DNA from: a virus
Taxonomy: Duplodnaviria > Heunggongvirae > Uroviricota > Caudoviricetes
Strand: one strand, 5' to 3'
Virus record (IMG/VR): IMGVR_UViG_2579778856_000001
DNA: 12,065 nucleotides
The translations under genes and the position numbers were made by a program. Below, piece after piece: positions 1-12,065 of the stretch. The stretch's first letter is position 1. Every line of letters begins with the position of its first letter. The notes beneath the pieces were generated by a model. That model was given only the letters and a program-made list of their open reading frames with translations. It made no database searches and was not told where the DNA came from.

Positions 1-156
1 CCTGAGCCATTTGAAAATAACATTATCATTGACGCCATTTTCACGTGCAATCTGTGCAACACAAGCTCCAGGTTGTGATGCCAGTTCCACCATACGAAGT
101 TTGAATTCATTCGAATAGTTTTTACGAGGTTCTTTTCGCCAGTCCTGTAATTCCAT
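1..156 (-). CDS. IS transposase accessory protein (OrfA/TnpA-type helix-turn-helix), N-terminal 52 codons, partial at window edge
   Basis: Reverse-complement translation from ATG at 156-154: MELQDWRKEPRKNYSNEFKLRMVELASQPGACVAQIARENGVNDNVIFKWLR. The Y-S-x-EFK...PGA-x-VAQIAR-x-x-GV-N-x-N-x-x-F-x-W pattern is typical of IS3/IS66-family first ORFs. In-frame stop (plus-strand tta at 193-195) bounds it upstream. Absent from the ORF track because it is truncated and under 60 aa. Confidence 0.6.
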   Translation of the reverse strand, partial: MELQDWRKEPRKNYSNEFKLRMVELASQPGACVAQIARENGVNDNVIFKWLR

Positions 157-241
157 ACTTAGATGTCCGTCTATATCAGATGGGCGTCTAAGTTACCAAT
201 TCTCGTCTGATGGCTACATACGGCGGTCAGTTTACGCTTAC
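1..241 (-). mobile_element. Partial insertion sequence, inner end only (element continues beyond window start); IS66-like or IS3-like
   Basis: Minus-strand transposase accessory ORF starts at 156 and runs off the window. Read on the minus strand from 241 the sequence begins GTAAGCG, which matches the 5'-GTAA start I recall for IS66-family terminal repeats; an alternative IS3-like TGACCGCC end lies at 229. Boundary not proven. Confidence 0.45.
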
Positions 242-395
242 GTCCCTTCTGGTCAAAATGGACGAAGAAATGCTCTGCTTCTTCGACAGCAACGGGCGAA
301 CCACCATGCCCCGTAAAGCTTTCTCCCTGCGTACTGGCGTAACCCGCCGCCAGCTGTTTCCAGACGCCATTTACTTCATTGAACGGGAGTTCTGA
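210..395 (+). CDS. Short ORF (61 aa), stop overlaps the RBS of the RadC-like gene; possibly the 3' remnant of a gene disrupted by the upstream IS
   Basis: ATG at 210, stop TGA 393-395, one nucleotide before the RadC ATG at 397. Reading frame is open from 192 and passes through the putative IS end (229-241). No recognisable domain. Confidence 0.3.
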   Translation: MATYGGQFTLTSLLVKMDEEMLCFFDSNGRTTMPRKAFSLRTGVTRRQLFPDAIYFIEREF

Positions 396-396
396 C

Positions 397-849
397 ATGA
401 CCATGTTTACCCAGCGTGAAACCCGTATCCTTGACCAGGCGCGTGACATTATTAGCCGGTACTACCAGCGTGGGGTTCAACTCTGTTCCCCTGATGATGT
501 TCGACGGTGCGTGATGGTTGAGCTGGCACCGCTTGAACATGAAGAGTTTGGCATCATCCTACTCGATAATCATAATCAGCTGCTGCACCGCGAAATCCTG
601 TTCAGGGGTACGCTAAACTCGGTCAGCGTTCACCCCCGTGAAGTTATTAAGCGTGTGCTGAAACATAACGCCGCCGCCGTCATCCTTGTCCATAATCACC
701 CCAGCGGCGAGCCTGAACCCAGCCGGTGTGACATCCAGTTGACCAAAAAGCTTCAGGAGCTGCTGGAAATACTGGATGTGCGGTTACTTGATCACTTTAT
801 CGTGGCAGGAACTGAAACGGTGTCGATGGCTGAGCGAGGACTGGTGTGA
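397..849 (+). CDS. RadC-like JAB/MPN-domain protein (UPF0758; YeeS/YfjY/YkfG-like)
   Basis: 150 aa from ATG 397 with SD GGGAG at 385-389 (the track's 379 start is a TTG extension). Contains the JAMM signature HNHPSGEPEPSRCD (H-x-H-x7-S-x2-D) with an upstream Glu. Size and motif match the RadC-like proteins of E. coli cryptic prophage islands. Confidence 0.85.
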   Translation: MTMFTQRETRILDQARDIISRYYQRGVQLCSPDDVRRCVMVELAPLEHEEFGIILLDNHNQLLHREILFRGTLNSVSVHPREVIKRVLKHNAAAVILVHNHPSGEPEPSRCDIQLTKKLQELLEILDVRLLDHFIVAGTETVSMAERGLV

Positions 850-895
850 TGCTGAAAGTTACTTGGTTTAATGTACGTTATTGCGGGTTACGCGC

Positions 896-1825
896 ATGAG
901 CAGGACAGCGTTGCGTCAGGTCGTGCCGGTGGTGCAAACCACCGTGTTCGATGCGTATATTGTCGGTCTGGCCCCCTCGGGACGGCGAGGTATCACCAGC
1001 CTGTTAAACCGCAGCGCCAGCATACTTAAACACGGTGCGGATGCAGCAGACTATCCGTGGGAACAACTTAACTACGCCGCCGTTGCCAAAGTGCGCGCGG
1101 CACTGCTGGATGACGGTTACGCCGTGTCATCGGTCAACATGGCGCTGTCAGCACTCCGGGGCGTAGCGCAGACGGCCTTTAACCTCAATTACATGGATGC
1201 CGAAACGCTGGCACGTATCCGGTCAGTTAAGCGCGTGAGCGGCGATGTCCAGCGCAAGGGAAGGGCGCTGGGCAGGCAGGAAATCCGGGTACTGATTCAG
1301 GCTGCAAAACAGCATCCGCAATCTGTACGGCGCTGTCGCGATGTCGCCATTGTGCTGATGCTTTGCGGAACGGGCCTGCGGGCCGGGGAACTGGTTAAAC
1401 TTGAGCGCCGGGACTATGACAACGGCATCCTGACGGTGAGGCAAGGGAAGGGGCGTAAATACCGTGAAATTCACGTGGCGGATGCGGTGGACAAGGCTAT
1501 TCGTGCGTGGCTGAAAGTTGGCGCAGACGAGGCTGACAGTGCGTTGTTTAGGCGAATTCAGCGCAGTGGTAAGGTCGCAAGCCAACCGCTGACTACGACC
1601 GGGTTAACGGGTATCCTGGCTGAGTTACAGCAAACGGCAGGTATAGCACGTTTTACCCCGCATGATATGCGGCGCACCTTCATCACCCGTTTGCTGGAGC
1701 AGGGCGTGGATATCAATACCGTCCGCCAGTTGGCAGGCCACAGCGACATATCCACGACGACGCGCTATGACTGTCGTGGTGATACTATGAAGATCAGTGC
1801 CAGCAAGCGCATCAGATGTTTTTAG
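896..1825 (+). CDS. Tyrosine-type site-specific recombinase/integrase (XerC/D-like, short form, 309 aa)
   Basis: Complete catalytic signature in order: R in GLRAGEL, K in RQGKGRKYREIHV, H-x-x-R in HDMRRTF, H in AGHSD, Y in TTRYD. ATG 896 preferred over the track's TTG at 881. Stop TAG 1823-1825. Confidence 0.85.
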   Translation: MSRTALRQVVPVVQTTVFDAYIVGLAPSGRRGITSLLNRSASILKHGADAADYPWEQLNYAAVAKVRAALLDDGYAVSSVNMALSALRGVAQTAFNLNYMDAETLARIRSVKRVSGDVQRKGRALGRQEIRVLIQAAKQHPQSVRRCRDVAIVLMLCGTGLRAGELVKLERRDYDNGILTVRQGKGRKYREIHVADAVDKAIRAWLKVGADEADSALFRRIQRSGKVASQPLTTTGLTGILAELQQTAGIARFTPHDMRRTFITRLLEQGVDINTVRQLAGHSDISTTTRYDCRGDTMKISASKRIRCF

Positions 1826-2426
1826 CAGTTGAGGCGTTGCCAGACTCGGTTTCAGTTTCATCTTCAGCACTCAACCGCGCGTACTTTTGATTCTGGATGT
1901 TAATTTGTGCATTGATATTTTCAGGCTGAAGCATCCACGCAACATCCTCACGCGCCCATTCTTTACCGTCAGAGAGTCGTTTTAACCGGGGTTTCCATAT
2001 TCCATACTCATTAAGTTTTTCTGCTACCGAAGCATATTTCTCACGATCTGACTCCCCCGTATGAAGCTTGTCAAAACGACCTTTTACAAGCTGGTAAACA
2101 GTATAGATTTCCAGTGCCTTAGGGGACCTGGCCGGGACTATCATGGGGTGTTCCTCCGGCCTATAAATCCCGTTTGGCTCTCCCTCATTGAGCAGGTCAT
2201 TAAACATGTGGTTCACGCAGGCACTCAGCACATCTGCCGCTTTCTCCGCAGCGAATTTATCCGGGCTAAAACCCGCTCCCGTCAGTTTCCGGGCAATCAG
2301 TGCCAGTTTTTGCCGGGTATCCCGTCCCAGATAAAGCTTCTTCTCCAGAAATTCAAAGACCTCGTTACTGCTTTTCCGTTCCCGGTGGCATCTGGCGTCA
2401 GCCTTGTTGCTTTGGTTACCAATCAT
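1812..2426 (-). CDS. Hypothetical protein (204 aa), unknown function, divergent from alpA
   Basis: Long minus-strand ORF. Second ATG (2426-2424) is preceded by a perfect SD GGAGGTG (plus 2429-2435), so start MIGNQSNK... is preferred over the ATG at 2438. 3' end overlaps the integrase 3' end by 14 bp (convergent). Acidic C-terminal tail. No motif I can assign. Confidence 0.6.
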   Translation of the reverse strand: MIGNQSNKADARCHRERKSSNEVFEFLEKKLYLGRDTRQKLALIARKLTGAGFSPDKFAAEKAADVLSACVNHMFNDLLNEGEPNGIYRPEEHPMIVPARSPKALEIYTVYQLVKGRFDKLHTGESDREKYASVAEKLNEYGIWKPRLKRLSDGKEWAREDVAWMLQPENINAQINIQNQKYARLSAEDETETESGNASTAKNI

Positions 2427-2445
2427 AGTCACCTCCATGACAGTG

Positions 2446-2457
2446 TTTTGTACAAAA
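2446..2457. promoter_or_regulatory. Perfect 12-bp palindrome TTTTGTACAAAA in the divergent promoter region; candidate operator
   Basis: Seen directly, about 10 bp upstream of the SD of the 1812-2426 gene and within the 222-bp divergent region shared with alpA. Confidence 0.3.
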
Positions 2458-2648
2458 TATCACCATTGAGCCTCAGTGAAAATTGCTTCTTTATATGACC
2501 GTTCTGGAGACAGAAATAGATGATCTCGAATGACATCCACATTAAAGATGCCCTTAACGTGCTCAACGAAGGCATCGTTGAGTGAATCCTTGCGTTTTTT
2601 GGTGGTTGTAAATAACCCGCTCCTGAAACAGCTCAAAGGAGCACAAGC

Positions 2649-2846
2649 ATGAACACCAACCGTATTTTGCGTAAAAAAGAGGTACTTCATCTGACGGGGA
2701 ACTCGTCAGCGACGTTGTACCGACTCATCTCGAAAGGATTCTTTCCTTTGTCAAAGAGGCTAACGGGCGACAATGGCCGGGCGGTAGGCTGGCTGGAGAG
2801 TGATATCAATAACTGGGTTAACAGCCGTATGCAGGCGGGAGAATGA
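2649..2846 (+). CDS. alpA: AlpA-family (Vis/excisionase-like) helix-turn-helix transcriptional regulator
   Basis: 65 aa, SD AAGGAG at 2636-2641. RILRKKEVLHLTG-x-S-x-ATLYRLI...FP...G-x-RAVGWLESDINNWV aligns with the recalled E. coli CP4-57 AlpA (RILRLPAVIQKTGMARATIYDWL...FPKKRMLGVKSVGWIEAEIDEWL). Confidence 0.8.
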   Translation: MNTNRILRKKEVLHLTGNSSATLYRLISKGFFPLSKRLTGDNGRAVGWLESDINNWVNSRMQAGE

Positions 2847-2847
2847 A

Positions 2848-3315
2848 ATGAAAGAGATAAAATCGAAAACCAGTTCTGCGAAAAAAACGCTGGTTCCTTG
2901 GTTCGAAACTATGGGGAAACAGGTTGGTTTATCACAAGAAACGATATCAGCAGTGTTAAAGGAGCAGCGTTTACGGATACGTAAGCTTAACTACGCATCT
3001 GCATATACAGTGTCCAATATTCTCATACAGGATTGCGGCGGGGCCGATGACATGTGGAGCAACTACGCTAAACTGGCGCTTATCCTTGAGCGTTGTAAAT
3101 ACATTCCCTGCGGGAGCAGGGCCTGTGCATATTGTTCTACCGCTCAGCAATTACATTATCAGGGGGTGGATGTAACCGGGGAATACGCTTTATATCAGTT
3201 GCCTGAGTTATTTTTAGATTTTTTAGAAACAAACGACAAAAATTCCTCTTATCATTGGGATTACAATAAGTTAGTTGAGCGGCATGAAGATGCTCAGGCG
3301 AGGTCATTCGGGTAA
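2848..3315 (+). CDS. Hypothetical protein (155 aa) with N-terminal HTH-like segment and C-terminal Cys4 cluster (C-x4-C-x4-C-x2-C)
   Basis: ATG 2848 lies 1 nt after the alpA stop (GGGAGAATGAAATG; translational coupling); the track's 2800 start overlaps alpA. Cysteines at residues 83, 88, 93, 96 (CKYIPCGSRACAYC). GC about 40-45 percent, lower than flanks. Confidence 0.6.
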   Translation: MKEIKSKTSSAKKTLVPWFETMGKQVGLSQETISAVLKEQRLRIRKLNYASAYTVSNILIQDCGGADDMWSNYAKLALILERCKYIPCGSRACAYCSTAQQLHYQGVDVTGEYALYQLPELFLDFLETNDKNSSYHWDYNKLVERHEDAQARSFG

Positions 3316-3346
3316 TAGCCATTTCTGTATGGTGAAAAACTGACAT

Positions 3347-3381
3347 ATTACCCTGCCACTGCATTTTGGTGGCAGGGTAAT
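3347..3381. promoter_or_regulatory. Perfect 13-bp inverted repeat (ATTACCCTGCCAC, 9-nt spacer, GTGGCAGGGTAAT); operator or RNA hairpin between the two Cys-cluster genes
   Basis: Seen directly, 32 bp after the upstream stop and 22 bp before the next ATG. No T-tract immediately 3' on the plus strand, so not a canonical intrinsic terminator. Contains the 12-mer CCACTGCATTTT that recurs at 4335-4346. Confidence 0.4.
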
Positions 3382-3402
3382 CAATACAGCTAGGAATATT
3401 AA

Positions 3403-4257
3403 ATGAACGATTCTTATTACTTCAGAACATCTGACCCGGATTACATTCGTCACGCACCGTCAATGCTTGAGATTTTAAGTAAAGCATTCCCCACTATTAT
3501 TACCCAGCAGGAAAGTGAGTATGAACTGCAGCGTCTTAACCATTTACTAAATAAACTGAAAGGCAGCAATCGCTGCTACAACATCATTGCTCAAAAACTA
3601 AGGCAGTGCAGAAACGGATCTCCATGCAACAGTCTTATATGCCCGCATTGCCAGCGGGAACGCATTCTGGCGCAACTGGCTATGTTGCATGTCTTGCCGG
3701 GGAATTCAGCAGAATACGTGGGAGTGGTCCTGTTTTTCAACAAGGATACGCAAACTCCGCCGCCATGGAAGAACATTGGGGCGCTCAGGGCGCAAATCGG
3801 TCGTTATAAGCAGAGGATAAGCCGGGTACTTAACCGCCTGGGGTACGCCGGTCCGGCCACAGGCACCTTCAGTATGATGCGACATATGCCTGATGGCCCA
3901 GAAGAGCGTATTTTCTGGGTTCCACAGTTGTGTTTGTTCCTGCCCAATGACAGTACGTTGATTAAGGGGCTAAAAGCGCATATGTCGCGAAGTGGTGGGG
4001 CATTCATTGATGCATCGACGCTTAACACACCAGTGATCGTGCTCAGGTATAAAGATCCCGCGAGACTGATTTCATGCGCCCTGAATCCAGTCTGGCACAC
4101 AGCAGATTACACACTGACTGATAAAGACGCTCTTGTTAAGTCAAGAATGGAGCTACTGAAAGGCCGGACACTGTTAAAAAGTCTGCTTACCCTGGACTCA
4201 CTCGGAACAGGTGTCGTTTCTTTTTCGTTTGGGCAACCCCCAGGGAAAGTGCACTGA
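3403..4257 (+). CDS. Hypothetical protein (284 aa) with zinc-ribbon-like Cys4 cluster (C-x5-C-x4-C-x2-C)
   Basis: ATG 3403 with AGGA 7 nt upstream. Cys cluster CRNGSPCNSLICPHC at residues 69-83 (nt 3607-3651). No family assignable by eye. Confidence 0.65.
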   Translation: MNDSYYFRTSDPDYIRHAPSMLEILSKAFPTIITQQESEYELQRLNHLLNKLKGSNRCYNIIAQKLRQCRNGSPCNSLICPHCQRERILAQLAMLHVLPGNSAEYVGVVLFFNKDTQTPPPWKNIGALRAQIGRYKQRISRVLNRLGYAGPATGTFSMMRHMPDGPEERIFWVPQLCLFLPNDSTLIKGLKAHMSRSGGAFIDASTLNTPVIVLRYKDPARLISCALNPVWHTADYTLTDKDALVKSRMELLKGRTLLKSLLTLDSLGTGVVSFSFGQPPGKVH

Positions 4258-4269
4258 TTTACCGGTAAT

Positions 4270-4370
4270 GCAGCAACTGCAATGCACTTTTGCTGTTGAT
4301 TAAATTGCAGTGGAACGACGAATAACAGCGGCAACCACTGCATTTTCGTTGTTGTAAAACTGCAAAGCTT
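4270..4370. repeat. Iteron-like repeat cluster: four copies of ACTGCA(A/T) (one inverted), an 8-bp perfect inverted repeat, and ATGCACTTT twice
   Basis: ACTGCAA at 4276-4282, inverted copy at 4305-4311, ACTGCAT at 4337-4343, ACTGCAA at 4359-4365. IR TGCAGTGG 4306-4313 / CCACTGCA 4335-4342. ATGCACTTT at 4282-4290 and again at 4393-4401. Confidence 0.4.
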
Positions 4371-4519
4371 GCCAGTGATTTTGATGGCGCTGATGCACTT
4401 TAACATTCCAACTGTCTCGATTTTAACGCAACCGTCTGTTTTCTGCAGGGGCTCACGGATGCCTCTGCACACCCGATCCTTACCATCAACTGACGAGTTA
4501 GCGCATCTGTGAGGGCTTT

Positions 4520-4833
4520 CTGTGTTTCTGTCAGTGAATATTCTACACACAATGGGGGGAGCGGTCAGCGAGCACCATTGCCATTGAGCGCAACGGAGAG
4601 CTTGGGGACATGCAGCACTACGGAGGCTTCATCTCCTTCTCATGTCATTAAACGATACGGCGAACGAGCGCAGCGAGTGAGGGAAGGCGTCAGCCTGAAC
4701 AGGGGGAAAGATTTGCGACCGGAGTGGAGCAAATCATGGGCGGAGCCCATCCTCGCGACTGGGGTTTTGACTTTCGAATTGCCCAGCGTTGAGTTTGGTT
4801 AATGTAGTGAGACGAGGATGCTGAGAGGGGACC
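4520..4833 (+). other. Purine/G-rich non-coding segment; candidate structured 5' leader or small RNA upstream of the polymerase-like gene
   Basis: No ATG-initiated ORF of plausible codon usage. The only track ORF here (4509-4802) starts with GTG and is rich in rare codons (AGG, CGA, GGG). Runs such as GGGGGGAGCGG, GAGGGAAGGCG, ACAGGGGGAAAG. Tight hairpin ATGGGC-GGA-GCCCAT at 4736-4750. Confidence 0.25.
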
Positions 4834-6231
4834 GTGAGTACTGAAAAGGATTATCCAGTGAAGATCCCTAAGTGGGTTTATGACCGTATTACTGAAATAA
4901 CGGATTATGTCGTGGGGGATACGCAATGGGCTGTTACCCGGCGGCAGACAGTACGGTGGTTCCTGGCTCACATATGGCTGGAAACAGACGATGATGGCTG
5001 GACTATATGCACTGTCCGGGATATCCGTAGCAGCTATGCCAGTCTCCTGGGACAGTGTGAAATTAGTTACCAGGGGGAGTGCTTTATGTCCACGCTAACT
5101 GATTTCCTGCCGACACTTTCGGATATTGAATTTCGTGCAGGAAAAGCGAGCAAAGACCCGGAAAAGCGTAGAGCCAGTGCATGGCGGTTCAACCCCCTGC
5201 TGCCTGTGTGTGATGAGTCTGCCAGGGGTAAGTTAAATCTGGTTGACTTGGATACTGGTGAGTCTGTTAGTTTTAGAGCTCTGCTTCAGGGGAACGGGAA
5301 AGCTCCTGGGCATGCGATAGATGTAGAGAAACGCCAGACGGCCCTAAAACAAACGGAAAAGGACTTCTTGGCCAAAGTTGGGCGGGGGCGCATGAGTATA
5401 CAGTTTGTGAAGGAATTGCGTAGCCGTGAGCCGGATCACTATTACCGCGCAGGAATACGCAGCCTTAACCATCTCTACAATGGCAGGATTGAGGGACAAT
5501 ATGTCACTTACGACCATCATTATCGTCTGACGTTTGGAGGGCGGTATTATGATCAAGCTTTCCAGAATCTGCCCAATGAGTTCAAAGCTAAATTTCGGAC
5601 CGGGTTACTCAACTATGACATCGAAGCGTGCAATCTGGCCTGTCTGAACCATCTGTTCAGACAGTATGACGTCGATTATCGTGTGAAGTCATCGATATAT
5701 AAAACCATGATGGAACATACCGGGCTGACCCGTAAACAGTGCAAACAGATGGTCCATACCACCACCTACAGAATTGGGCGTGTGACTATTGGTGTTAATG
5801 ATGGCCTTGGGGCAAAAGTGTATGGATGGTGCGGTAACAGCAAAAAAAAGGCGCTAAAGATTTTGCGTTGGTGGAACCGTTATATCAGTCCATTGAAATC
5901 TGCGCTTGAGTCATTGCTGGAACGTGTGCATGGCGCACACCGCAAGAGTTGTTCATCACCGCGTAACTATCACAGGTACGCTAATGAAGTCGGATTAATA
6001 CTGGATCTTAATAGTGAGGTGTATCAGCGTGAAAAGACTCACCATCATCAATATGCGCGGAATAAGGCACTGTTGGCGTTTATGATCTGTGGTGTGGAGC
6101 AGGCGTATATCCGTGAGGTTGTCAGTATGAACCCTGGTCGTGTCTGCATGCTGGATCATGATGGGGTAGTGGCAACGGGCGCGCTTTCACTACCGGACTG
6201 GCGTGGTTTCACGATGAAAGTGAAGGACTAG
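4834..6231 (+). CDS. Uncharacterised protein (465 aa) with family-A / T7-like single-subunit polymerase motifs A, B (O-helix) and C; putative minimal right-hand polymerase
   Basis: GTG start at 4834 with SD GAGAGGGGA immediately upstream and in-frame stop at 4822-4824. Motif A-like NYDIEACNLACLNHL (res 260-274; compare Pol I DYSQIELRIMAHL). O-helix-like RKQCKQMVHTTTY (R300, K304, H308, Y312; compare Pol I R754-K758-F762-Y766). Motif C-like CMLDHDGVV (res 438-446; compare Pol I MQVHDELV). A-to-B and B-to-C spacing (about 42 and 137 aa) resembles Klenow and T7 DNA polymerase. Motif-level inference only. Confidence 0.65.
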   Translation: MSTEKDYPVKIPKWVYDRITEITDYVVGDTQWAVTRRQTVRWFLAHIWLETDDDGWTICTVRDIRSSYASLLGQCEISYQGECFMSTLTDFLPTLSDIEFRAGKASKDPEKRRASAWRFNPLLPVCDESARGKLNLVDLDTGESVSFRALLQGNGKAPGHAIDVEKRQTALKQTEKDFLAKVGRGRMSIQFVKELRSREPDHYYRAGIRSLNHLYNGRIEGQYVTYDHHYRLTFGGRYYDQAFQNLPNEFKAKFRTGLLNYDIEACNLACLNHLFRQYDVDYRVKSSIYKTMMEHTGLTRKQCKQMVHTTTYRIGRVTIGVNDGLGAKVYGWCGNSKKKALKILRWWNRYISPLKSALESLLERVHGAHRKSCSSPRNYHRYANEVGLILDLNSEVYQREKTHHHQYARNKALLAFMICGVEQAYIREVVSMNPGRVCMLDHDGVVATGALSLPDWRGFTMKVKD

Positions 6232-6297
6232 CTTACTTTCTTGAATTTAACTATCTGCGATCTCTGATAAGGGCGTATTACGTTGTCAATCATAATG

Positions 6298-6328
6298 GGA
6301 TATGCGCATTGGAACGATGTGCATATCC
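6298..6328. repeat. 11-bp inverted repeat / hairpin (GGATATGCGCA, 9-nt spacer, TGTGCATATCC; one G-T position)
   Basis: Seen directly, 67 bp after the polymerase-like gene stop and 27 bp before the IS30-type terminal repeat. No downstream T-tract. Confidence 0.3.
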
Positions 6329-6355
6329 AGTAAGTGATCCATGTCCGCTTTGAGC

Positions 6356-7090
6356 TGTGAGTTCAACGGGTCGATGCAACGCTGTCCCTAATCAAGGGGG
6401 ACGTTGCCATGAAACGAAGAACTCGTATTAACTACACGCCAGAGCAAAAGGTGATTATTTGGGACAGATATAAGCAAGGTGATTCCCTGCATGATATCCC
6501 CCAGAATGTTCGACAGATTTCACTCTACTATCATGCCTACAATCCACCAGGCCGGTGGCTACCGTCCTCCCGTGCGAAAGCGGCACCGGTTAGCGTTTTC
6601 GCTTGATGAAAAAGAGGAGATATCCAGAGGACTGGTAGCAAAACGCATCATCAGGGACATCGCTGCTAAATTATCAATAGCTCCCTCAACGATTAGCCGC
6701 GAGATCAGGAGGCACGGCGGTGCAAAACAATACCGTGCAGCAAAAGCCGATCCTGCTGCGTGGGAAAATGCTCTGAGACCAAAACCTTGCAAGCTAATTG
6801 AAAGCCCCACATTGTGTAAAATCATTGCAGAGAAGATGCATCAGGACTGGTCGCCGGAACAAATTGGCGGTTGGCTAAAACGCTGTTATCCCGATAATCA
6901 GGAAATGCATGTGTCACATGAAATGATTTATAAAACGCTTTTTATACCAACCCGGGGAGCTTTAAAAAAAGAGCTGCAGCAATGCCTCAGAAGCGGAAGA
7001 GTAGTGCGTAGATCCAAAACCTCATCACTTAAAGTAAACAGAGATACATTCTGGTCACGAATGCCCGGTTGTTCGTGCTTTGCGTTTTAA
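6356..7090 (+). mobile_element. IS30-family insertion sequence remnant (left inverted repeat plus 5' part of the transposase gene; 3' half deleted)
   Basis: Left end TGTGAGTTCAACGGGTCGATGCAAC at 6356-6380 resembles the recalled IS30 IRL (TGTAGATTCAATTGGTCAACGCAAC). Transposase ORF begins 53 bp inside. Element ends abruptly; no right repeat before the membrane protein gene. Confidence 0.7.
6409..7090 (+). pseudogene. IS30-family transposase, frameshifted near 6498-6502 and truncated (N-terminal HTH region only, DDE domain missing)
   Basis: Track ORFs 6409-6606 and 6479-7090 are consecutive pieces of one IS30-like transposase in two frames. MKRRTRINYTPEQKVIIWDRYKQGDSLHDI then, in the other frame, FDRFHSTIMP...RKRHRLAFSLDEKEEISRGL...APSTISREIRRHGG...KPCKL...WSPEQIGGWL...EMIYKTLF. 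Frame switch coincides with a C5 run. Product about 200 aa versus about 380 for intact IS30 transposase. Confidence 0.75.
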
Positions 7091-7154
7091 TCGCATTTTA
7101 CAGTTTCTGCCTGCGTGCAGAGGTTGATGGTATTTTCTGAAAAAGCGGCTCGCT

Positions 7155-7182: not shown

Positions 7183-7227
7183 AGTTTGTGTCATTCTGAC
7201 CCATCTTTATACCGCGACGGTGGAAAC

Positions 7228-9798
7228 ATGGATGAGCTGCTAACCCTTGGCTGCATTGCTTTATTCTTCGCACTGGTGGTGGTTCCCATCCTCGCGATTA
7301 TCGCGCTCAGCCGCAGCACGGCTGTTCGTTCTGAGCTGGCGACCCTGCGTCGCCGGGTGGAGGTGCTTGAGCAGCGCGGTGTGACTGAAGCACCCGCCAC
7401 AGTGGTAACAACTGTGCCGCAGAGTGTTTCGCAGATGGTTGTGCCTGTTGAAACGTCTTCGCCTGCGGTTAACATCGTGCTGTCGGAGCCTGTGGCTGAT
7501 GTCACGCCTGAGTCCGTTGACCCCTGGCGTCCACAACCGAAGCCGCAAAACGAGGCGCTACCCACACCAGCGGTCGAACAATCTTCCGCTTTTGGTGGGG
7601 TGATGTCGTCCCTGGTGCGCTGGTTTATGCAGGGCAACCCGCTGGCAAAGCTGGGTATTCTGCTTCTCTTCCTTGGCTTCTCCTTCCTGCTGCGTTATAC
7701 GGTTGAACACTCCCTGTTCCCGCTTGAGCTACGTCTGGTGGCGACTTCGCTGTTTGCGATTGCCCTGCTGGTAGTGGGCTGGCGATTGCGGCATAAACAG
7801 CTGGTTTATGCGCTGATCATACAGGGTGGAGCTACGGGGACGCTCTATCTCACCGTTTTTGGCGCATTCTGGCTCTGGCAGATGCTGCCGATGACGCTGG
7901 CGTTTGCATTACTGGTGGCGATTTGCGCGGCGAGCGTGGGACTGGCGATTATGCAAAAAGCGCTCAGCCTCGCGATGCTGGCAAGTATCGGTGGCTATCT
8001 GGCACCGCTGTTGCTTTCCACCGGCGGCGGTAGTCATGTGGCGCTCTTCTCTTTCTACCTTCTGCTTTCCGTCGGTATTCTCGCCATCAGCATCTGGCAA
8101 CACTGGCGCGAGCTTAATCTGCTTGGCCTGTTATTTACCTTTGGTATCGGCGGTCTTTGGGGACTCGACGGCTATCGATCAGAGTATTACCTGAGCAGTC
8201 AGCTTTTCCTGATAGCCAATACGATCATTTTTGGTGTGCTGAGCGTGGCGCTATCGCTACGAGCACAGGAGAAAGGTAAGCAGATTATTGATGGCGTGCT
8301 GTTGTTTGCATCGCCGCTGGTCGGTTTTGGCATGCAGTACGCCATAACCCGGCATATGGAATATGGTCCGGCGCTTAGCGCGCTGGGTTACGGCGGTTTC
8401 TATCTGGCGTTAGCATGGCTTGCATTGCGTCGCTATCCCTCTTTGGGGAGGCCGCTGGTGCTGGCGGCGCTGGCGCTGGGTGGGGCATTTACCACGCTCG
8501 CTATCCCACTGGCGCTTTCGGCCCGCTGGACGGCGATGGCCTGGGCGCTGGAAGGTCTCGGCATCCTCTGGCTGGGCGTGCAACAGCAGCAGCGGCGTAT
8601 GAGCTATAGCGGCACTGCGCTGCTGGTGCTGGCAGTGTGCAGCGCGCTGTGGGCGCAGATGAACGGGATGAGCGCGCTTTCTCTGGTGCTAATCTTTGCC
8701 GTACTCAGCCTCAGCTGGCTGGCTGCCGCCTGGCTGTGGCGCAATATTCAGTTGCAGGGTAGTTGGGTTCTGTTGGCTGGCGGTTTGATCTTCTGGATAA
8801 TCGCGCTCATTGGGGCATCGCAACTGGTGCTGAAAAAGGACTCGCTGGTGCTGTCTGGCGTGCTGGCGTTAATGGCGATATCGGTCTGGGGCTGGCGGAT
8901 TGTCTCTGGTCGTCTGGCCTGGTGGGAGCTGGATGTCAGCAAATGGTTGCTGTGGCCGACGATGCTGGTGATGCTGCTGTCTCAAATTTCACAACATGAG
9001 ATTTTTGCTGCGGGCTGGCAGAATCTGGCCTGGTGTCTGGCGTTACCCGCTGCGGGGGCATTGCTCTGGCGTGATGCTGAGACGTTGCCGCCGCGCCTCT
9101 CCAGACTGGCGCACCTTTCACTCTTCTGGATGATTCTGCTCGCGCTGGCGGCGGAGCTATTCTGGTTTGCGCAAGATCTGCCATGGGGCATGGCGGCGTG
9201 GGGCTCCGGCCTGATGATGGCCGCGGGGGGCCTGCTCATCTTTCTCGTTCATGAGGCGGTTCATCGTCAGCTATGGCCATTCCGAAGCTGGCCCGCACTC
9301 TACGCTTCTCAGGCGATGATACCGGTAGCTGCGGTATTGGTTGTTCTGCTAGTACTGACGAATTTGCAGGATGGCGTAGTTTATCGCCAGACCTGGCTGC
9401 CGCTGGTGAATCCACTGGAGGAGGGGGCCGCTTTTGCGCTACTGGGACTCATTGTATTTTATCGCGTTTCGCAGCGCTTTTTCCCGGTGCAGATTTCGGT
9501 ATGCCGTCCCTGGCCGCTCATTGCACTGCTGGCGCTTAGCTTCTGGTGGCTGAATGGCATCCTGCTGCGCGCATTGGCCTGGTACGGCGAAGTGCCCTGG
9601 AGCGCGGAAACACTGTGGCATTCGCGGCTGATTCAGACCTGTTTTGCCCTGTTCTGGATGCTGGCGGCATTAGTGGTGATGCTACGTGCGACCCGGCGTT
9701 GCTCACGTCGCGAATGGCTTTGTGGATCCGTATTGTTAGGGATTGTTATTGTGAAACTGATGTTGGTAGACAGTGCGCGTGGCGGCGGCCTGGCATGA
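7228..9798 (+). CDS. Large polytopic inner-membrane protein (857 aa); N-terminal TM helix, coiled-coil, Pro/Val/Thr-rich linker, then about 20 predicted TM helices; family unassigned
   Basis: ATG 7228 preceded by GGTGGA (the track's 7186 start is a TTG extension). Long hydrophobic stretches rich in L/A/G/W separated by short polar loops. GC well above the island genes (sampled 60-bp stretch about 68 percent). Stop TGA 9796-9798. Confidence 0.8.
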   Translation: MDELLTLGCIALFFALVVVPILAIIALSRSTAVRSELATLRRRVEVLEQRGVTEAPATVVTTVPQSVSQMVVPVETSSPAVNIVLSEPVADVTPESVDPWRPQPKPQNEALPTPAVEQSSAFGGVMSSLVRWFMQGNPLAKLGILLLFLGFSFLLRYTVEHSLFPLELRLVATSLFAIALLVVGWRLRHKQLVYALIIQGGATGTLYLTVFGAFWLWQMLPMTLAFALLVAICAASVGLAIMQKALSLAMLASIGGYLAPLLLSTGGGSHVALFSFYLLLSVGILAISIWQHWRELNLLGLLFTFGIGGLWGLDGYRSEYYLSSQLFLIANTIIFGVLSVALSLRAQEKGKQIIDGVLLFASPLVGFGMQYAITRHMEYGPALSALGYGGFYLALAWLALRRYPSLGRPLVLAALALGGAFTTLAIPLALSARWTAMAWALEGLGILWLGVQQQQRRMSYSGTALLVLAVCSALWAQMNGMSALSLVLIFAVLSLSWLAAAWLWRNIQLQGSWVLLAGGLIFWIIALIGASQLVLKKDSLVLSGVLALMAISVWGWRIVSGRLAWWELDVSKWLLWPTMLVMLLSQISQHEIFAAGWQNLAWCLALPAAGALLWRDAETLPPRLSRLAHLSLFWMILLALAAELFWFAQDLPWGMAAWGSGLMMAAGGLLIFLVHEAVHRQLWPFRSWPALYASQAMIPVAAVLVVLLVLTNLQDGVVYRQTWLPLVNPLEEGAAFALLGLIVFYRVSQRFFPVQISVCRPWPLIALLALSFWWLNGILLRALAWYGEVPWSAETLWHSRLIQTCFALFWMLAALVVMLRATRRCSRREWLCGSVLLGIVIVKLMLVDSARGGGLA

Positions 9799-9991
9799 TC
9801 AGACATGAGATAAATGAAGGGGGATCCGTGAGATAAATAACGAATTGGAGTGGGTTAACATGGGTTCTGGTGAACAGAACTGAAATTCTTTTCCGCTATA
9901 CGATAGATAAGTCGGGCATTGAAATCATCCTTCCTGGCAACTTAGAATCGAGTTTGCTGAAACATGACCCGCAACAAAAAGGATGATTCCA

Positions 9992-10153
9992 ATGACTACT
10001 CAAAACAATAAGCATGATAGCCTGGATTACTCAGAAAAGCCCAAAAGCAAGCACATCGTGACGTTCGAGCGCGATTCCGGTAGAAAAGGAGAATCGTCTT
10101 CCTCTGCCAATAAAACCACTATGCCGGCAGCCCCTGCCCCAGGGAAAAAATAA
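9992..10153 (+). CDS. Possible small hydrophilic protein (53 aa), K/S-rich; not in the ORF track because under 60 aa
   Basis: ATG 9992 with AAGGA 9 nt upstream. MTTQNNKHDSLDYSEKPKSKHIVTFERDSGRKGESSSSANKTTMPAAPAPGKK, stop TAA 10151-10153. Alternative in-frame ATG at 9983. Confidence 0.3.
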   Translation: MTTQNNKHDSLDYSEKPKSKHIVTFERDSGRKGESSSSANKTTMPAAPAPGKK

Positions 10154-10156
10154 ACA

Positions 10157-10789
10157 TCATTCATCGTTCGTTGCACGAACGCGCCTGATCTCCACTCTGG
10201 CAATCTGATCTGCTGGAATATAGGTTGCCAGAGCTCCCCAGTACTTATCAACCACGCCTTTATACTCTTCCCATTCGTTACTGCCTGAAGGGCTGCTGTG
10301 CGTGACGTAAAGAACCATATCGCCTTTATTCCCCAGGGTAAACGGACCGTTAGGCCACTCTTCAAAGTTCCCTGGCAGCCGTGACATCATACCGGAACCA
10401 TCGCGAAGAATCACTCTGACCTCGGTAACGCTGAAGCCTGTTTGATCAAACATTGCCTGCCATGCTGAGCTGGTATCGTCAGACCATGAAATATCATTAT
10501 TCCACAGTAATCTGTACATCCATTTGCGACCGTACCTGCGCCACCACGCACCGCATGTAAGGGCACACAGAAGTGCTGGTGGTGTTGCCAGCCAGGCATT
10601 CAGACCTGCCCACATAACAGCCTGGTAAGCCATCATTGCTGTCAGGCCAAAAATCAGCGAAGAAAAAGTCACCTCAATGGGCTTGTGGTGATCCTTCAGT
10701 CCCACATTCGCAATAAAATACCCAATATAGCCACTGGTCAGGGTCACCAGTGTTGCCCATGGCAGATTTAACAACGAAACGTCAAACAT
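10157..10789 (-). CDS. Membrane protein (210 aa): three predicted N-terminal TM helices plus a soluble C-terminal domain; unknown function
   Basis: Start at the ATG for MFDVSLLNLPW... (plus 10787-10789) preceded by SD GGGAG. The track's longer start is a TTG lying inside the upstream terminator hairpin. Sits directly downstream of the mor terminator. Confidence 0.65.
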   Translation of the reverse strand: MFDVSLLNLPWATLVTLTSGYIGYFIANVGLKDHHKPIEVTFSSLIFGLTAMMAYQAVMWAGLNAWLATPPALLCALTCGAWWRRYGRKWMYRLLWNNDISWSDDTSSAWQAMFDQTGFSVTEVRVILRDGSGMMSRLPGNFEEWPNGPFTLGNKGDMVLYVTHSSPSGSNEWEEYKGVVDKYWGALATYIPADQIARVEIRRVRATNDE

Positions 10790-10827
10790 ATTTTCTCCCT
10801 GCATCCTGAATACTAAAGAGAGAGCAT

Positions 10828-10861
10828 AAAAAAAGCACGGTAAGGGGTCTACCGTGCTTTT
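10828..10861 (-). terminator. Rho-independent terminator (bidirectional hairpin) downstream of mor
   Basis: 9-bp stem AGCACGGTA / TACCGTGCT (10834-10842 and 10850-10858) with 7-nt loop, flanked by an A7 run at 10828-10834 (a U7 tract on the minus-strand transcript) and TTTT at 10858-10861 on the plus strand. Confidence 0.6.
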
Positions 10862-10903
10862 ATACAATAAGGAGATTTTTGAAAGGACTTTAACAAGCAG
10901 GAA

Positions 10904-11302
10904 TTATCTGGATTTGTTAACGTCTTTCGTCTCCTCTGGCAGATCTTCATCAAACAACCTGCCCTGCATCCGATCCAGTTCTTCTTTTCTGACCCGCTTA
11001 ACCACGCTGTAGACCCACTGAAGCGAAACACCAAACTTGCGGGCCAGTTCGTGGTGGTTGCGTCCGTTAAACTCCCTGAAGATTTCCCGGTCGCGCTGAC
11101 TGACCTTCCATACCATGCCCATCGGGAAATAAACGTTTTGCCCGCCCCAGACCTGCATCATTCGGTTCGCGACGGCCTGACCAATCTGGTCGGCAACTTC
11201 GGGCTCAATATCAATAATCTCGCGAACGGTCTCAGAGGTATGCTGTGCCAGTTCCACCAGGAGTTCCGGCCCCTTACTTCGAAACTGATTCAGGTCGCTC
11301 AT
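10904..11302 (-). CDS. mor: Mor-family transcriptional activator (phage Mu middle operon regulator-like)
   Basis: 132 aa. WGGQNVYFPMG...RDREIFREFNGRNHHELARKFGVSLQWVYSVVKRVR aligns with the recalled Mu Mor core (GGGQVYIPRG...RD...FNGRN...EL...YGV...VY...R). Confidence 0.75.
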   Translation of the reverse strand: MSDLNQFRSKGPELLVELAQHTSETVREIIDIEPEVADQIGQAVANRMMQVWGGQNVYFPMGMVWKVSQRDREIFREFNGRNHHELARKFGVSLQWVYSVVKRVRKEELDRMQGRLFDEDLPEETKDVNKSR

Positions 11303-11726
11303 GTTTGACTCCCGCAGCTCTGCGCTGCCACTTCTTCAGTTTCTCAATAACACTGCTTGCCTGTTCAGTACTGAGCCAGCGCAGGGCGCTGATGCCCGTT
11401 TCCCGCTTGATCCACCGCGCTAATGCATTTTCTGAACGGTCACGAACAATGCCGGCAGCAGCCATTTCAAGCCATAGCGCACGGATTTTCCTGGACTGCG
11501 GATGGTTATCCAGCGGTAAACCGGAGCTGGCTTTTCCGGCAGGCTTAACGCGAAAGCCTTTCCTTTTCATGGATTCCAGCACGCAGTTTAGTTGTGTGGT
11601 ATCCATTCCTTTGGTTGAGGCTTTACCGGTCAGCCCCTGTAACATCTGGCGGTAGGTGTCTTCATCCATACCCAGTTCATTACGGGCAATATGAATGAGC
11701 TGGATAAGACGTTGTTTAGTCATCAT
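11274..11726 (-). CDS. Mu gp16/GemA-like protein (DUF1018-type), upstream partner of mor
   Basis: RLIQLIHIARNELGMDEDTYRQMLQGLTGKAS...SRKIRALW pattern as in Mu-like prophage gp16/GemA proteins. 3' end overlaps the mor start by 29 bp. Start chosen at the ATGATG pair preceded by AAAGGAG rather than the track's 11765. My reading here was off by one base relative to the track; track frame used. Confidence 0.6.
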   Translation of the reverse strand: MMTKQRLIQLIHIARNELGMDEDTYRQMLQGLTGKASTKGMDTTQLNCVLESMKRKGFRVKPAGKASSGLPLDNHPQSRKIRALWLEMAAAGIVRDRSENALARWIKRETGISALRWLSTEQASSVIEKLKKWQRRAAGVKHERPESVSK

Positions 11727-11931
11727 CGTTGCTCCTTTTACCTGCGCCACCGATATAATCGACATATAAAGGAAGCGCCACAGGCCAGCACAGGAACATC
11801 ACCGACCAGCTAATCCAGTAGCCAGCACCACTGTAACGTGAATAAAACCCTGAACGGCGGTGCAGTTCAGCAGTACACCAACCGACAAAACAATACCAGA
11901 ACAGGGCACATACAACAGATTCAGCCGTCAT
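11716..11931 (-). CDS. Possible small membrane protein (about 71 aa, two TM helices) overlapping the gemA-like start
   Basis: Track ORF 11716-12045 starts with TTG; first ATG gives MTAESVVCALFWYCFVGWCTAELHRRSGFYSRYSGAGYWISWSVMFLCWPVALPLYVDYIGGAGKRSNDDD. Stop overlaps the gemA-like start (coupling). Weak SD. Confidence 0.3.
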   Translation of the reverse strand: MTAESVVCALFWYCFVGWCTAELHRRSGFYSRYSGAGYWISWSVMFLCWPVALPLYVDYIGGAGKRSNDDD

Positions 11932-12065
11932 TCTGAATATCCCCCCAACTGATATGAATATTACGGGCAGCAATGACAGGGTCGTTATTCCACCATGCAC
12001 CTGACATGTATTTTTCAACCTGTTCGCGTCCGGCAATAACACCAATTGTGATCCCCGGCCTGACG

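What the first reader, a model, noticed from the sequence alone, without database searches (positions are those of the whole stretch)
10157..11726. Mu-like gemA-mor pair followed by a terminator and a membrane protein rather than phage late genes
Mor and GemA/gp16 homologues are adjacent and overlapping as in transposable Mu-like phages, but the gene after the terminator is a 3-TM membrane protein with a soluble domain, and within about 1 kb the locus runs into a GC-rich host-like membrane gene. This is either a truncated Mu-like remnant or a prophage carrying a moron (for example a superinfection-exclusion or abortive-infection protein) at that position.
Basis: partly seen in the sequence, partly recalled or inferred. 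Interest (0 to 1): 0.45.

Follow-up and report, generated by a model that had tools for sequence, protein, structure and literature searches.

The report
Transposable prophage end carrying accessory cassette
This is the intact outer end of a BcepMu-type (Mu-like) transposable prophage that jumped into an E. coli membrane-protein gene; the odd membrane gene after mor belongs to a small two-gene add-on cassette of unknown function that also turns up in several unrelated temperate phages.

Summary
gemA (11274-11723) and mor (10904-11302) overlap by 29 nt and are followed by a strong terminator (10861-10831) and a 210-aa protein with three TM helices and a soluble domain (10157-10789).

The "truncated remnant" reading is wrong. 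In the type phage BcepMu, mor is the last gene of an outward-reading early arm, 364 bp from the genome end. Here the phage terminus lies at 9796. It has TG ends and two TGAGATAAAT repeats. It is identical in more than 100 E. coli genomes, each with different flanking genes. It has cut 30 codons off a DUF2339 host gene.

The "moron" reading is broadly right but incomplete:
- 640 of 5426 E. coli genomes carry this gemA-mor pair, but only 118 carry this terminal module.
- The membrane gene is paired with a convergent 53-aa Pro/Lys-tailed ORF (9992-10153).
- The same pair occurs at the same site in other enterobacterial BcepMu-like prophages.
- It also occurs at four different positions in or beside the structural modules of other phages, and next to recombinases in Rhizobiales.
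- The membrane protein family has at least 521 clusters. Its C-terminal domain is Sm-like, and it matches no defence or Pfam model.

Function is unknown. My leading guess is phage exclusion or abortive infection. The prophage context is ordinary; the cassette is a reasonable experimental lead.

The parts
7228..9795 (+). Host DUF2339 membrane-protein gene, cut by the prophage 90 nt (30 codons) before its natural stop. The listed ORF 7186-9798 ends in the TGA supplied by the first three bases of the phage.
   Evidence: PF10101, E 1.5e-146. The intact 885-aa gene in E. coli SA186 continues 90 nt past the point matching window 9795. The junction sequence was read directly.
9796..9838 (.). Terminus of the transposable prophage (the mor-proximal, BcepMu 'left' end): 5'-TGATCAGACA followed by two direct TGAGATAAAT repeats at 9806-9815 and 9829-9838. 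These are presumed transposase-binding sites.
   Evidence: Identity to more than 100 E. coli genomes starts exactly here, and the flanking genes differ (rfaH, phnP, flgJ, ptsP, gabP, irp1 and others). The repeats were found. The other end of the G749 copy has matching inverted G(A/C)GATAAATG sites at the same spacing, plus the 6-bp duplication CATTCC. Diverged ends in L010 and L012 keep the motif.
9917..9994 (+). Control region of the small ORF. It holds a sigma-70-like promoter, TTGAAA-18-TAGAAT (9919-9948), and a 16-nt inverted repeat (9917-9932 / 9979-9994). The left arm carries the -35 plus an anti-SD sequence; the right arm carries the SD and the start codon.
   Evidence: Promoter scan gave 10 of 12 matches. 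The inverted repeat is 94% complementary. Both hexamers and both arms are conserved in Serratia, Citrobacter, Salmonella and Symbiopectobacterium copies although the spacer differs. Function is inferred.
9992..10153 (+). Small convergent ORF of 53 aa, MTTQNNKHDSLDYSEKPK...PAAPAPGKK. It is hydrophilic and probably disordered. Its stop lies 3 nt from the stop of the membrane gene.
   Evidence: phrog_15726, E 1.2e-41. Annotated in RefSeq as WP_001571575. Homologues abut the membrane-gene homologue in 28 of 33 distinct loci. Alignment A4 shows a shared [DN][YF]xxxP[KR] motif and a PPxPKK tail. A profile search found 28 proteins, all unnamed and without Pfam. The reverse look-up from three of them found the partner gene every time.
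10157..10789 (-). Accessory membrane protein of 210 aa: three TM helices, predicted N-out/C-in, plus a cytoplasmic Sm-like beta-barrel domain.
10831..10861 (-). Intrinsic terminator between mor and the membrane gene. An A-run lies upstream and a T-run downstream, so it is weakly bidirectional.
   Evidence: 13-bp stem plus T-run. An equivalent hairpin lies 34-45 nt before the membrane gene in 7 of 12 enterobacterial lineages, with different stem sequences.
10904..11302 (-). mor: Mor/C-family transcription activator, 132 aa. It is the last core gene of the early arm.
   Evidence: PF08765, E 1.1e-43. phrog_532, late transcriptional activator. BcepMu gene 1 occupies the same position.
11274..11723 (-). 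gemA (gp16 family), 149 aa. An alternative start lies at 11726. It overlaps mor by 29 nt.
   Evidence: PF06252, E 1.3e-40. RefSeq names it a gp16 family protein.
11716..11931 (-). Small early-arm ORF of 71 aa with two hydrophobic segments. It overlaps the gemA start.
   Evidence: phrog_6436, E 1.7e-14. RefSeq WP_000123379 in G749.
11921..12065 (-). 3' part of the next early-arm ORF, cut off by the end of the window.
   Evidence: Corresponds to WP_000631814 (L001 22122-22352) in the identical G749 prophage.

Best explanation
Window 9796-12065 is the intact mor-proximal end of a BcepMu-type (Bcepmuvirus-like) transposable prophage. It transposed into the 3' end of an E. coli DUF2339 gene.

In this phage type the early arm (repressor region, transposase, MuB/ExeA-like ATPase, gam, gemA, mor) is transcribed outward and ends at the genome terminus. 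No late genes are therefore expected after mor.

Between mor and the terminus this phage carries an optional, horizontally mobile two-gene cassette:
- a 210-aa inner-membrane protein with three TM helices and a cytoplasmic Sm-like beta-barrel, co-oriented with the early arm behind its terminator;
- a convergent 53-aa disordered Pro/Lys-tailed protein with its own conserved sigma-70-type promoter. Its transcript must run antisense into the membrane gene.

The points above are shown directly or follow from near-identical copies.

What follows is inference. The cassette is an accessory conflict module. The membrane protein probably assembles through its Sm-like domains into an oligomer in the inner membrane. 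It would then either block DNA entry of superinfecting phages or permeabilise the membrane in an abortive response. The small partner, as protein and/or antisense RNA, would keep it in check.

I put the genomic identification at about 0.9 and the exclusion/abortive-infection function at about 0.3-0.35.
For: Identity of the element:
- Mor and GemA domains are present.
- In BcepMu, gene 1 is mor and gene 2 is gemA, both reading toward the left end 364 bp away.
- The window is 99.8-100% identical to a full 38,335-bp prophage in G749 with a 6-bp target duplication and inverted terminal repeats.
- Homology begins at 9796 in all genomes, and the flanking genes differ.
- The DUF2339 gene is intact in 504 or more other genomes and extends 90 nt further.

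Accessory and mobile nature of the cassette:
- gemA-mor occurs in 640 genomes but the terminal module in only 118.
- Relatives without cargo exist, and a second allele has an extra ORF.
- gemA, mor and the membrane gene are syntenic in Citrobacter, Serratia, Salmonella, Symbiopectobacterium, Pantoea and Arsenophonus at 57-69% aa identity.
- The same gene pair sits between the connector and head-closure genes of an HK97-like phage.
- It sits between minor tail proteins and the tail tip, between portal/MuF and capsid, and between capsid and terminase.
- It sits beside serine recombinases in Rhizobiales.

The pairing:
- 28 of 33 distinct loci have the small ORF.
- The small-protein profile retrieves only unnamed proteins, and 3 of 3 checked lie next to the partner gene.

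Structure and chemistry:
- AF2 pLDDT 82; Sm-like fold.
- Across 69 diverse members the near-invariant residues are Gly, Tyr, Trp, Thr, Pro and a single Arg. No catalytic-type pattern appears, which favours a structural or channel role.

Precedent: the HK97 gp15 moron is an inner-membrane protein that excludes superinfecting phages (PMC3594210).
Against: - No match to any PADLOC defence model, and no experimental data were found.
- No promoter was recognised for the membrane gene. It sits 34 nt behind a strong terminator of an operon that should be repressed in a lysogen. Expression from the prophage, which exclusion would require, is therefore unproven.
- The oligomeric pore idea rests only on the general habit of Sm-like domains to form rings. 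MscS and Cap15 were not recovered by sequence or fold search.
- The other end of the prophage lies outside the window, so completeness in this particular genome is inferred from identical copies.
- Cassette GC content does not differ clearly from the phage backbone.
Confidence: 0.6

Rival explanations
1. Toxin-antitoxin or addiction-type selfish cassette. The membrane protein is a membrane-damaging toxin. The convergent small gene, as protein or as antisense RNA across the toxin gene, is the antidote. The pair spreads and persists in phages because losing it is costly.
For: - The tail-to-tail pairing is strictly conserved, with stops -22 to +44 nt apart, so the transcripts must overlap.
- The small gene has its own conserved constitutive-type promoter, and the membrane gene has none.
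- The cassette moves between unrelated phages and islands, as selfish modules do.
- The TM part resembles three-TM holins weakly.
Against: - Ca. Pantoea persica (L018) and Arsenophonus (L019) keep an intact membrane gene but have lost the small ORF. That is hard to reconcile with an essential antidote.
- No known TA family matched.
- At 210 aa with a folded cytoplasmic domain, the protein is much larger than typical type I membrane toxins.
Confidence: 0.2
2. A lytic-cycle helper of the phage. The membrane protein is made by read-through from the flanking early or late operon during lytic growth. It acts on the infected cell, for example on lysis timing, membrane energetics, or excluding secondary infection of an already committed cell. 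The small gene silences it in the lysogen.
For: - The membrane gene is always co-oriented with the surrounding phage operon.
- In the Mu-like context it lies behind a terminator without a recognisable promoter.
- The antisense promoter would be the only active one in a repressed prophage.
Against: - It is dispensable. Close relatives lack it.
- These phages already have a holin, endolysin and spanin set.
- Its position differs in every phage type, which is not how a module-specific helper usually behaves.
Confidence: 0.2
3. One reading: a truncated Mu-like remnant whose late genes were deleted, leaving gemA-mor next to unrelated host DNA.
For: Only that no late genes follow mor within the window.
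Against: - This is the native BcepMu layout.
- The terminus with its transposase-site repeats is intact.
- Identical ends belong to full-length prophages with target duplications.
- Insertion sites differ between genomes, so the element is or recently was mobile.
Confidence: 0.03
4. The membrane protein is a host housekeeping or island gene that merely lies next to the prophage.
For: Homologues in Bradyrhizobium, Afipia, Devosia and Allosphingosinicella are not next to gemA-mor.
Against: - The gene lies inside the phage terminus at 9796.
- In E. coli it travels with the prophage to many insertion sites.
- It belongs to a PHROG family.
- IMG/VR holds 39 viral contigs with it, many within a few hundred bases of the contig end.
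- The alphaproteobacterial copies sit beside recombinases or inside phage structural modules.
Confidence: 0.01

Closest known systems
Burkholderia phage BcepMu (Bcepmuvirus) and BcepMu-like prophages of Enterobacteriaceae
   Same: gemA then mor are the last genes of an outward-reading early arm at the genome end. It has a DDE transposase, an ExeA/MuB-like ATPase and Gam upstream, and a divergent lysis/head/tail arm. It inserts at random with a short target duplication. Escherichia phage PhiKM, filed under Bcepmuvirus, is 95.7% identical over gemA-mor.
   Different: BcepMu, and the commonest E. coli relative, have no gene between mor and the terminus (364 bp and about 140 bp). This phage has a 1.1-kb two-gene insert there.
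Escherichia phage Mu (gemA-mor, then C and the late genes)
   Same: Homologous GemA and Mor proteins, adjacent and overlapping. Transposable lifestyle with TG ends.
   Different: In Mu the early arm reads inward, so mor is followed by C, lys and the head genes (established knowledge). Here it reads outward to the terminus.
HK97 gp15 moron (inner-membrane superinfection exclusion protein)
   Same: A membrane protein gene inserted in a temperate phage and absent from close relatives. gp15 is expressed from the prophage and blocks genome entry of other phages (PMC3594210). It is the functional model for the leading hypothesis.
   Different: gp15 has no sequence or fold relationship to this protein. 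It is a small YebO-like protein without a cytoplasmic domain, is a single gene with its own promoter and terminator, and has no convergent partner.
Pfam DUF6338 (PF19865), uncharacterised
   Same: It is the only curated family with any signal. Four homologues score 22-26 bits, and 14 of 69 diverse members hit at E down to 9e-6 over the TM2-TM3-linker region.
   Different: All scores fall below the gathering cut-off of 26.5 bits. The window protein itself gives no hit. DUF6338 has no known function, so the link explains nothing yet.
MscS-type channels and CBASS Cap15 (TM helices plus a small cytoplasmic beta-barrel)
   Same: Same overall architecture: a few N-terminal TM helices followed by a small beta-barrel on the cytoplasmic side. 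In SCOP the MscS middle domain is classed as Sm-like, and Cap15 is a 2-TM beta-barrel effector that disrupts the membrane (both from my own knowledge).

Membership tests
BcepMu-type transposable phage (Bcepmuvirus-like) | gemA then mor close the outward-reading early arm, next to the genome terminus | tested here: met
   In BcepMu, gene 1 is mor (365-736, -) and gene 2 is gemA. In the window, mor at 10904-11302 is the last core gene before the terminus at 9796.
BcepMu-type transposable phage (Bcepmuvirus-like) | Terminal 5'-TG and repeated transposase-binding motifs, inverted at the two ends | tested here: met
   TGATCAG... plus two TGAGATAAAT repeats spaced 23 nt apart. The right end of the identical G749 copy carries the inverted counterpart.
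BcepMu-type transposable phage (Bcepmuvirus-like) | Near-random insertion with a short target-site duplication | tested here: met
   At least 10 different flanking genes were seen among the copies listed. G749 has the 6-bp duplication CATTCC. The duplication in the window's own genome cannot be checked because the other end is outside the window.
BcepMu-type transposable phage (Bcepmuvirus-like) | DDE transposase, MuB/ExeA-like ATPase and Gam upstream; lysis, head and tail genes on the other arm | tested here: inconclusive
   All are present in the 99.8%-identical G749 prophage. They lie beyond 12065 in the window's genome.
Mu (Muvirus) gene order | mor followed, in the same orientation, by C and the late lysis and head genes | tested here: not met
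   After mor come a terminator, the cassette and the phage terminus.
Moron (Juhala/Hendrix sense) | Extra DNA present in some closely related phages and absent in others, at a fixed junction | tested here: met
   640 genomes carry gemA-mor and 118 carry this module. Relatives without cargo are L010 and L011.
Moron (Juhala/Hendrix sense) | Own promoter and terminator allowing expression from the repressed prophage | tested here: inconclusive
   A conserved promoter-like site exists only for the small ORF. None was found for the membrane gene. The terminator lies upstream of the membrane gene, not downstream.
Moron (Juhala/Hendrix sense) | Base composition different from the flanking phage genes | tested here: not met
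   GC is 0.44-0.51 over the cassette against 0.49-0.55 over mor-gemA. There is no clear step.
Pfam DUF6338 (PF19865) | Score at or above the gathering cut-off (26.5 bits) | tested here: not met
   The window protein gives no hit even at E <= 10. Relatives score 22.5-25.9 bits. 14 of 69 diverse members hit, all sub-threshold.
Known anti-phage defence systems (PADLOC-DB 2.0) | Match to any component model | tested here: not met
   No families matched at E <= 1 for the membrane protein, the small ORF or the upstream ORF.
MscS mechanosensitive channels | MS_channel sequence signature, or fold match of the TM3 plus beta domain | tested here: not met
CBASS Cap15 / S-2TMbeta effectors | Adjacent CD-NTase and the effector family signature | tested here: not met
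   Neighbours are mor, the small ORF and the phage end. No PADLOC or Pfam hit.
Toxin-antitoxin module | Toxicity of one partner, neutralised by the other | not testable with these tools
   Indirect evidence only. The convergent overlapping arrangement fits. Intact membrane genes without the small ORF in L018 and L019 argue against it.
Sm-like (LSm) fold | Five-stranded bent beta-barrel superposable on Sm/LSm proteins | tested here: met

The most novel reading that the evidence does not exclude
The membrane protein and its convergent mini-protein form a previously undescribed two-component phage-conflict module. It would be an oligomeric three-TM/Sm-like inner-membrane gate or pore, held in check by a disordered Pro/Lys-tailed partner and/or its antisense transcript. 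It would spread as a cassette between unrelated temperate phages (Mu-like, HK97-like and other siphoviruses) and genomic islands across Proteobacteria, giving lysogens exclusion of, or abortive resistance to, other phages.
Probability: 0.3. Interest if true: 0.65.

Novelty: new variant of a known kind. Interest (0 to 1): 0.4.

Why it matters
The apparent anomaly, Mu early genes with no late genes, disappears once the BcepMu layout is used as the reference instead of Mu. Annotators and prophage finders that expect Mu gene order will misjudge such ends as truncated.

About one complete E. coli genome in eight carries this prophage lineage (640 of 5426). It inserts into genes at random. Here it removed the C-terminus of a DUF2339 protein. 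In other strains it sits beside or within rfaH, ptsP, flgJ, irp1 and gabP, so it is a real source of strain-to-strain phenotypic variation.

The cassette is the part worth an experiment. It is a compact, widely distributed gene pair (at least 521 clusters at 50% identity). Neither protein has an annotation. The convergent architecture is unusual. It appears at a different insertion site in each of five phage contexts examined. If it proves to be an exclusion, abortive-infection or addiction module, it would add a family that current defence-system catalogues miss.

Tried and rejected
1. Pfam, NCBIfam and PADLOC scans of the membrane protein, the small ORF and the upstream ORF gave nothing. PHROGs gave only families of unknown function.
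2. A profile search of solved-structure sequences gave only chance-level hits: RRP4 and ATP synthase c, E about 0.7.
3. Foldseek against the PDB found nothing at E <= 0.001. BFVD gave one uncharacterised full-length match and weak three-TM holin resemblance, which I treat as generic helical-hairpin similarity. The afdb50 library was unavailable.
4. The MscS and Cap15 resemblance is rejected as membership and kept only as an architectural analogy.
5. I searched for a promoter for the membrane gene in the 34-45 nt after the terminator and upstream of it. Nothing was conserved or convincing.
6. An Rfam scan of 9600-12065 at E <= 0.1 gave no hit.
7. A literature search for DUF6338, for the RefSeq protein accessions and for BcepMu-like E. 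coli prophages returned nothing on function.
8. No complete E. coli genome has the same DUF2339/phage junction, so the source genome was not identified.
9. Merely having some convergent ORF is not specific. The background in these loci is 35% for any ORF of at least 150 aa. The pairing claim therefore rests on sequence conservation of the small protein and on the reciprocal look-ups.
10. A viral-contig scan with the very diverse alignment A3 failed because it had no conserved stretch. It was repeated with A1.
Full report
**1. Checking the observation**

The minus strand of 10157-12065 carries, in transcription order:
- a small ORF at 11716-11931;
- gemA at 11274-11723 (PF06252, E 1.3e-40);
- mor at 10904-11302 (PF08765, E 1.1e-43), overlapping gemA by 29 nt;
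- a 13-bp-stem terminator with a T-run at 10861-10831;
- a 210-aa ORF at 10157-10789.

The TTG start at 10867 given by the ORF list lies inside the terminator. The real start is the ATG at 10789, behind AGGGAG. RefSeq makes the same call in identical copies, and the protein matches phrog_12870 end to end.

An AlphaFold2 model (mean pLDDT 82.4) shows helices at 11-27, 37-60 and 65-97, then a beta-rich domain at 119-205. Hydropathy shows three hydrophobic segments. Five K/R residues follow the third one directly, so the soluble domain is probably cytoplasmic (inference from the positive-inside rule).

The GC-rich neighbour is a DUF2339 gene (GC profile).

**2. What the locus is**

Megablast against 5,426 complete E. 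coli genomes found copies of 9800-12065 at 99.8% identity. A query spanning the junction showed that homology starts at window 9796 in the best copies (within about 13 nt in every listed copy). The gene on the other side differs between genomes: rfaH, phnP, flgJ, yfaV, ptsP, gabP, irp1 and others. This is the signature of a transposable phage end.

The end reads TGATCAGACA and then has two TGAGATAAAT repeats 23 nt apart.

In strain G749 the element is a complete 38,335-bp prophage inside gabP. It has a 6-bp target duplication (CATTCC) and an inverted, imperfect copy of the terminal motif at the far end. Its gene order is:
- terminus, small ORF, membrane gene, mor, gemA;
- several small ORFs, Gam, an ExeA-like ATPase, an rve-type transposase and the repressor region;
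- then, divergently, holin, transglycosylase, terminase, portal, Mu-F-like, capsid, sheath, tube, tape measure, baseplate, fibre and invertase genes.

The type phage BcepMu has exactly this plan. Gene 1 is the Mor/C homologue and gene 2 is GemA, both reading toward the left end 364 bp away. Escherichia phage PhiKM, classified in Bcepmuvirus, is 95.7% identical over gemA-mor.

The absence of late genes after mor is therefore the normal BcepMu layout, not a truncation.

**3. The host side**

The DUF2339 ORF ends in a TGA that is the first three bases of the phage. In genomes without the insertion the gene is 885 aa and runs 90 nt further, followed by a DUF3999 gene. The phage therefore removed the last 30 codons. 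No complete genome in the collection has this same junction, so this is a private insertion.

**4. The cassette**

The gemA-mor segment occurs in 640 genomes, but the 9796-10880 module occurs in only 118. In the commonest relative, mor is followed by about 140 bp and then the terminus. A third variant carries an extra 78-aa ORF, a 69%-identical homologue of the membrane protein and a small ORF.

The membrane gene is therefore optional cargo at a fixed junction. It is also not a one-off:
- In Citrobacter, Serratia, Salmonella diarizonae, Symbiopectobacterium, Ca. Pantoea persica, Arsenophonus and Phlomobacter, a 57-69% identical homologue sits directly after mor (after gemA-mor wherever a gemA match was found) and next to a terminus with the same motif.
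- IMG/VR holds 39 viral contigs with it, many with the gene a few hundred bases from the contig end.

**5. The partner gene**

On the plus strand, 3 nt from the membrane gene's stop, ends a 53-aa ORF at 9992-10153 (phrog_15726; annotated in RefSeq). An ORF of 40-66 aa (up to about 95 aa where the start is uncertain) abuts the membrane-gene homologue tail to tail in 28 of 33 distinct loci.

Presence alone is weak evidence, because 35% of any long ORFs in these loci have some convergent ORF. But the small proteins align. They share an N-terminal M-[ST]-x-[KN], a [DN]-[YF]-x-x-x-P-[KR] element (often repeated, as in GNYTPTT) and a PPxPKK(K) tail. The version from an HK97-like phage bridges the enterobacterial and alphaproteobacterial types.

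A profile of the small proteins found 28 proteins in 5.8 billion. All are unnamed and without Pfam. All three that I looked up lie next to a 207-214-aa partner gene.

The small ORF has a conserved TTGAAA-N18-TAGAAT promoter-like site at 9919-9948. A 16-nt inverted repeat pairs the -35/anti-SD region with its SD and start codon. With the stops 3 nt apart and no terminator between them, the two transcripts must overlap.

**6. Mobility of the pair**

The same pair occurs in these contexts:
- between the connector and head-closure genes of an HK97-like phage;
- between minor tail proteins and the DUF6950/tail-tip genes of an alphaproteobacterial siphovirus;
- between portal/Mu-F and capsid genes, and between the head genes and a gpA-type terminase;
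- beside serine recombinases in Afipia, and in Bradyrhizobium beside a short ORF with only a weak resolvase-type HTH (HTH_7) hit.

The membrane gene is always co-oriented with the flanking phage operon, and the small gene is always antisense.

**7. The protein family**

An exhaustive profile search found 521 clusters at 50% identity with E <= 1e-3, and 430 with E <= 1e-10. Nearly all are full length at about 200-215 aa.

The only curated signal is sub-threshold similarity to DUF6338 in some members.

Across 69 diverse members the near-invariant positions are G20, Y21, Y24, G30, W83, R84, G153, G156, Y161, G185, T189 and P192. This set has no catalytic look, so I favour a structural, channel or sensor role over an enzyme.

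**8. Mechanism**

The following are shown:
- the layout, the terminus, the insertion and the optional nature of the cassette;
- the conserved pairing and its mobility;
- the topology-compatible fold.

The rest is inferred. The leading hypothesis is an accessory conflict module (superinfection exclusion or abortive infection). It rests on the precedent of membrane-protein morons such as HK97 gp15 (PMC3594210) and on accessory loci of Mu-like Pseudomonas phages (PMC4378225). Sm-like domains commonly form rings, so an oligomeric inner-membrane assembly regulated by the small partner is plausible.

Against this:
- there is no hit in PADLOC;
- no promoter was found for the membrane gene;
- a strong terminator lies 34 nt upstream of it. 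Equivalent hairpins with different stem sequences occur in 7 of 12 enterobacterial lineages.

Prophage expression is therefore unproven.

Two rivals remain open at about 0.2 each. One is a TA/addiction cassette. It is weakened by two symbiont genomes that keep the membrane gene but lost the small ORF. The other is a lytic-cycle helper expressed by read-through.

**9. Novelty and verdict**

The gemA-mor arrangement and the prophage type are already known.

I could not find the two-gene convergent cassette described anywhere. Both of its proteins lack annotation, and it lies outside current defence catalogues. I file it as a new variant of a known kind (a phage moron or accessory cassette), with function open.

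Interest is 0.4: ordinary context, but a clean and testable lead.

Noticed in passing
window 9805-9949; L034 3001-3144: About 105 E. coli ColV-type virulence plasmids carry a 145-bp relic of this phage terminus at 89.7% identity. It lies beside IS3/IS1 fragments, with no phage genes attached. It is probably the scar of an old insertion.
   Followed up: partly
window 9917-9932 and 9979-9994: A 16-nt inverted repeat. One arm overlaps the -35 of the small ORF's promoter and contains an anti-Shine-Dalgarno sequence (CATCCTT). The other arm is the SD plus the ATG. It is conserved in Serratia, Citrobacter and Salmonella copies. It would hide the ribosome site only in transcripts that enter from outside the phage end, or it could be an operator.
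   Followed up: partly
window 7228-9798: The host DUF2339 gene lost its last 30 codons to the prophage. In uninterrupted genomes it is followed by a (frameshifted) DUF3999 gene and sits in an island found in 522 of 5426 E. coli genomes.
   Followed up: partly
L003 8802-9272; L021 6789-7265; L024 6791-7273: In Bradyrhizobium and Afipia a third conserved gene (156-160 aa, no Pfam) lies upstream of the small ORF on the same strand. The alphaproteobacterial cassette may therefore have three genes. In the two Afipia loci a serine recombinase gene lies next to the membrane gene; the Bradyrhizobium locus has only a short ORF with a weak HTH_7 hit there.
   Followed up: no
L018 and L019, about 6600-6900: Insect-symbiont genomes (Ca. 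Pantoea persica, Arsenophonus nilaparvatae) keep an intact membrane gene after mor but have lost the small ORF. Only the -35 part of its promoter remains.
   Followed up: partly
L008 9756-11371: In Allosphingosinicella the homologue lies about 1 kb from a DUF4411 plus Peptidase_M78 (ImmA/IrrE-like) gene pair. This is the kind of neighbourhood seen in defence or TA islands.
   Followed up: no
L031 (OM835952, Klebsiella phage KP12 clone KP12_2): A record filed under Vequintavirinae contains BcepMu-type early genes (transposase, gemA, mor) 88% identical to the window. It is probably prophage or host DNA in the deposited sequence.
   Followed up: no
window 1-7100: The rest of the window is a separate mobile island. 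It holds a RadC-like gene (379-849), a tyrosine integrase (881-1825), an AlpA-like regulator (2649-2846), several unknown ORFs (one of 465 aa at 4834-6231) and a frameshifted transposase fragment (6409-7090; my guess is IS30-type) (RefSeq 'transposase').
   Followed up: no
L012/L013 3684-3956; L006 7690-7977: Some relatives have an extra small ORF (78-95 aa) between mor and the membrane gene. The mor-to-terminus interval therefore accumulates different cargo.
   Followed up: no
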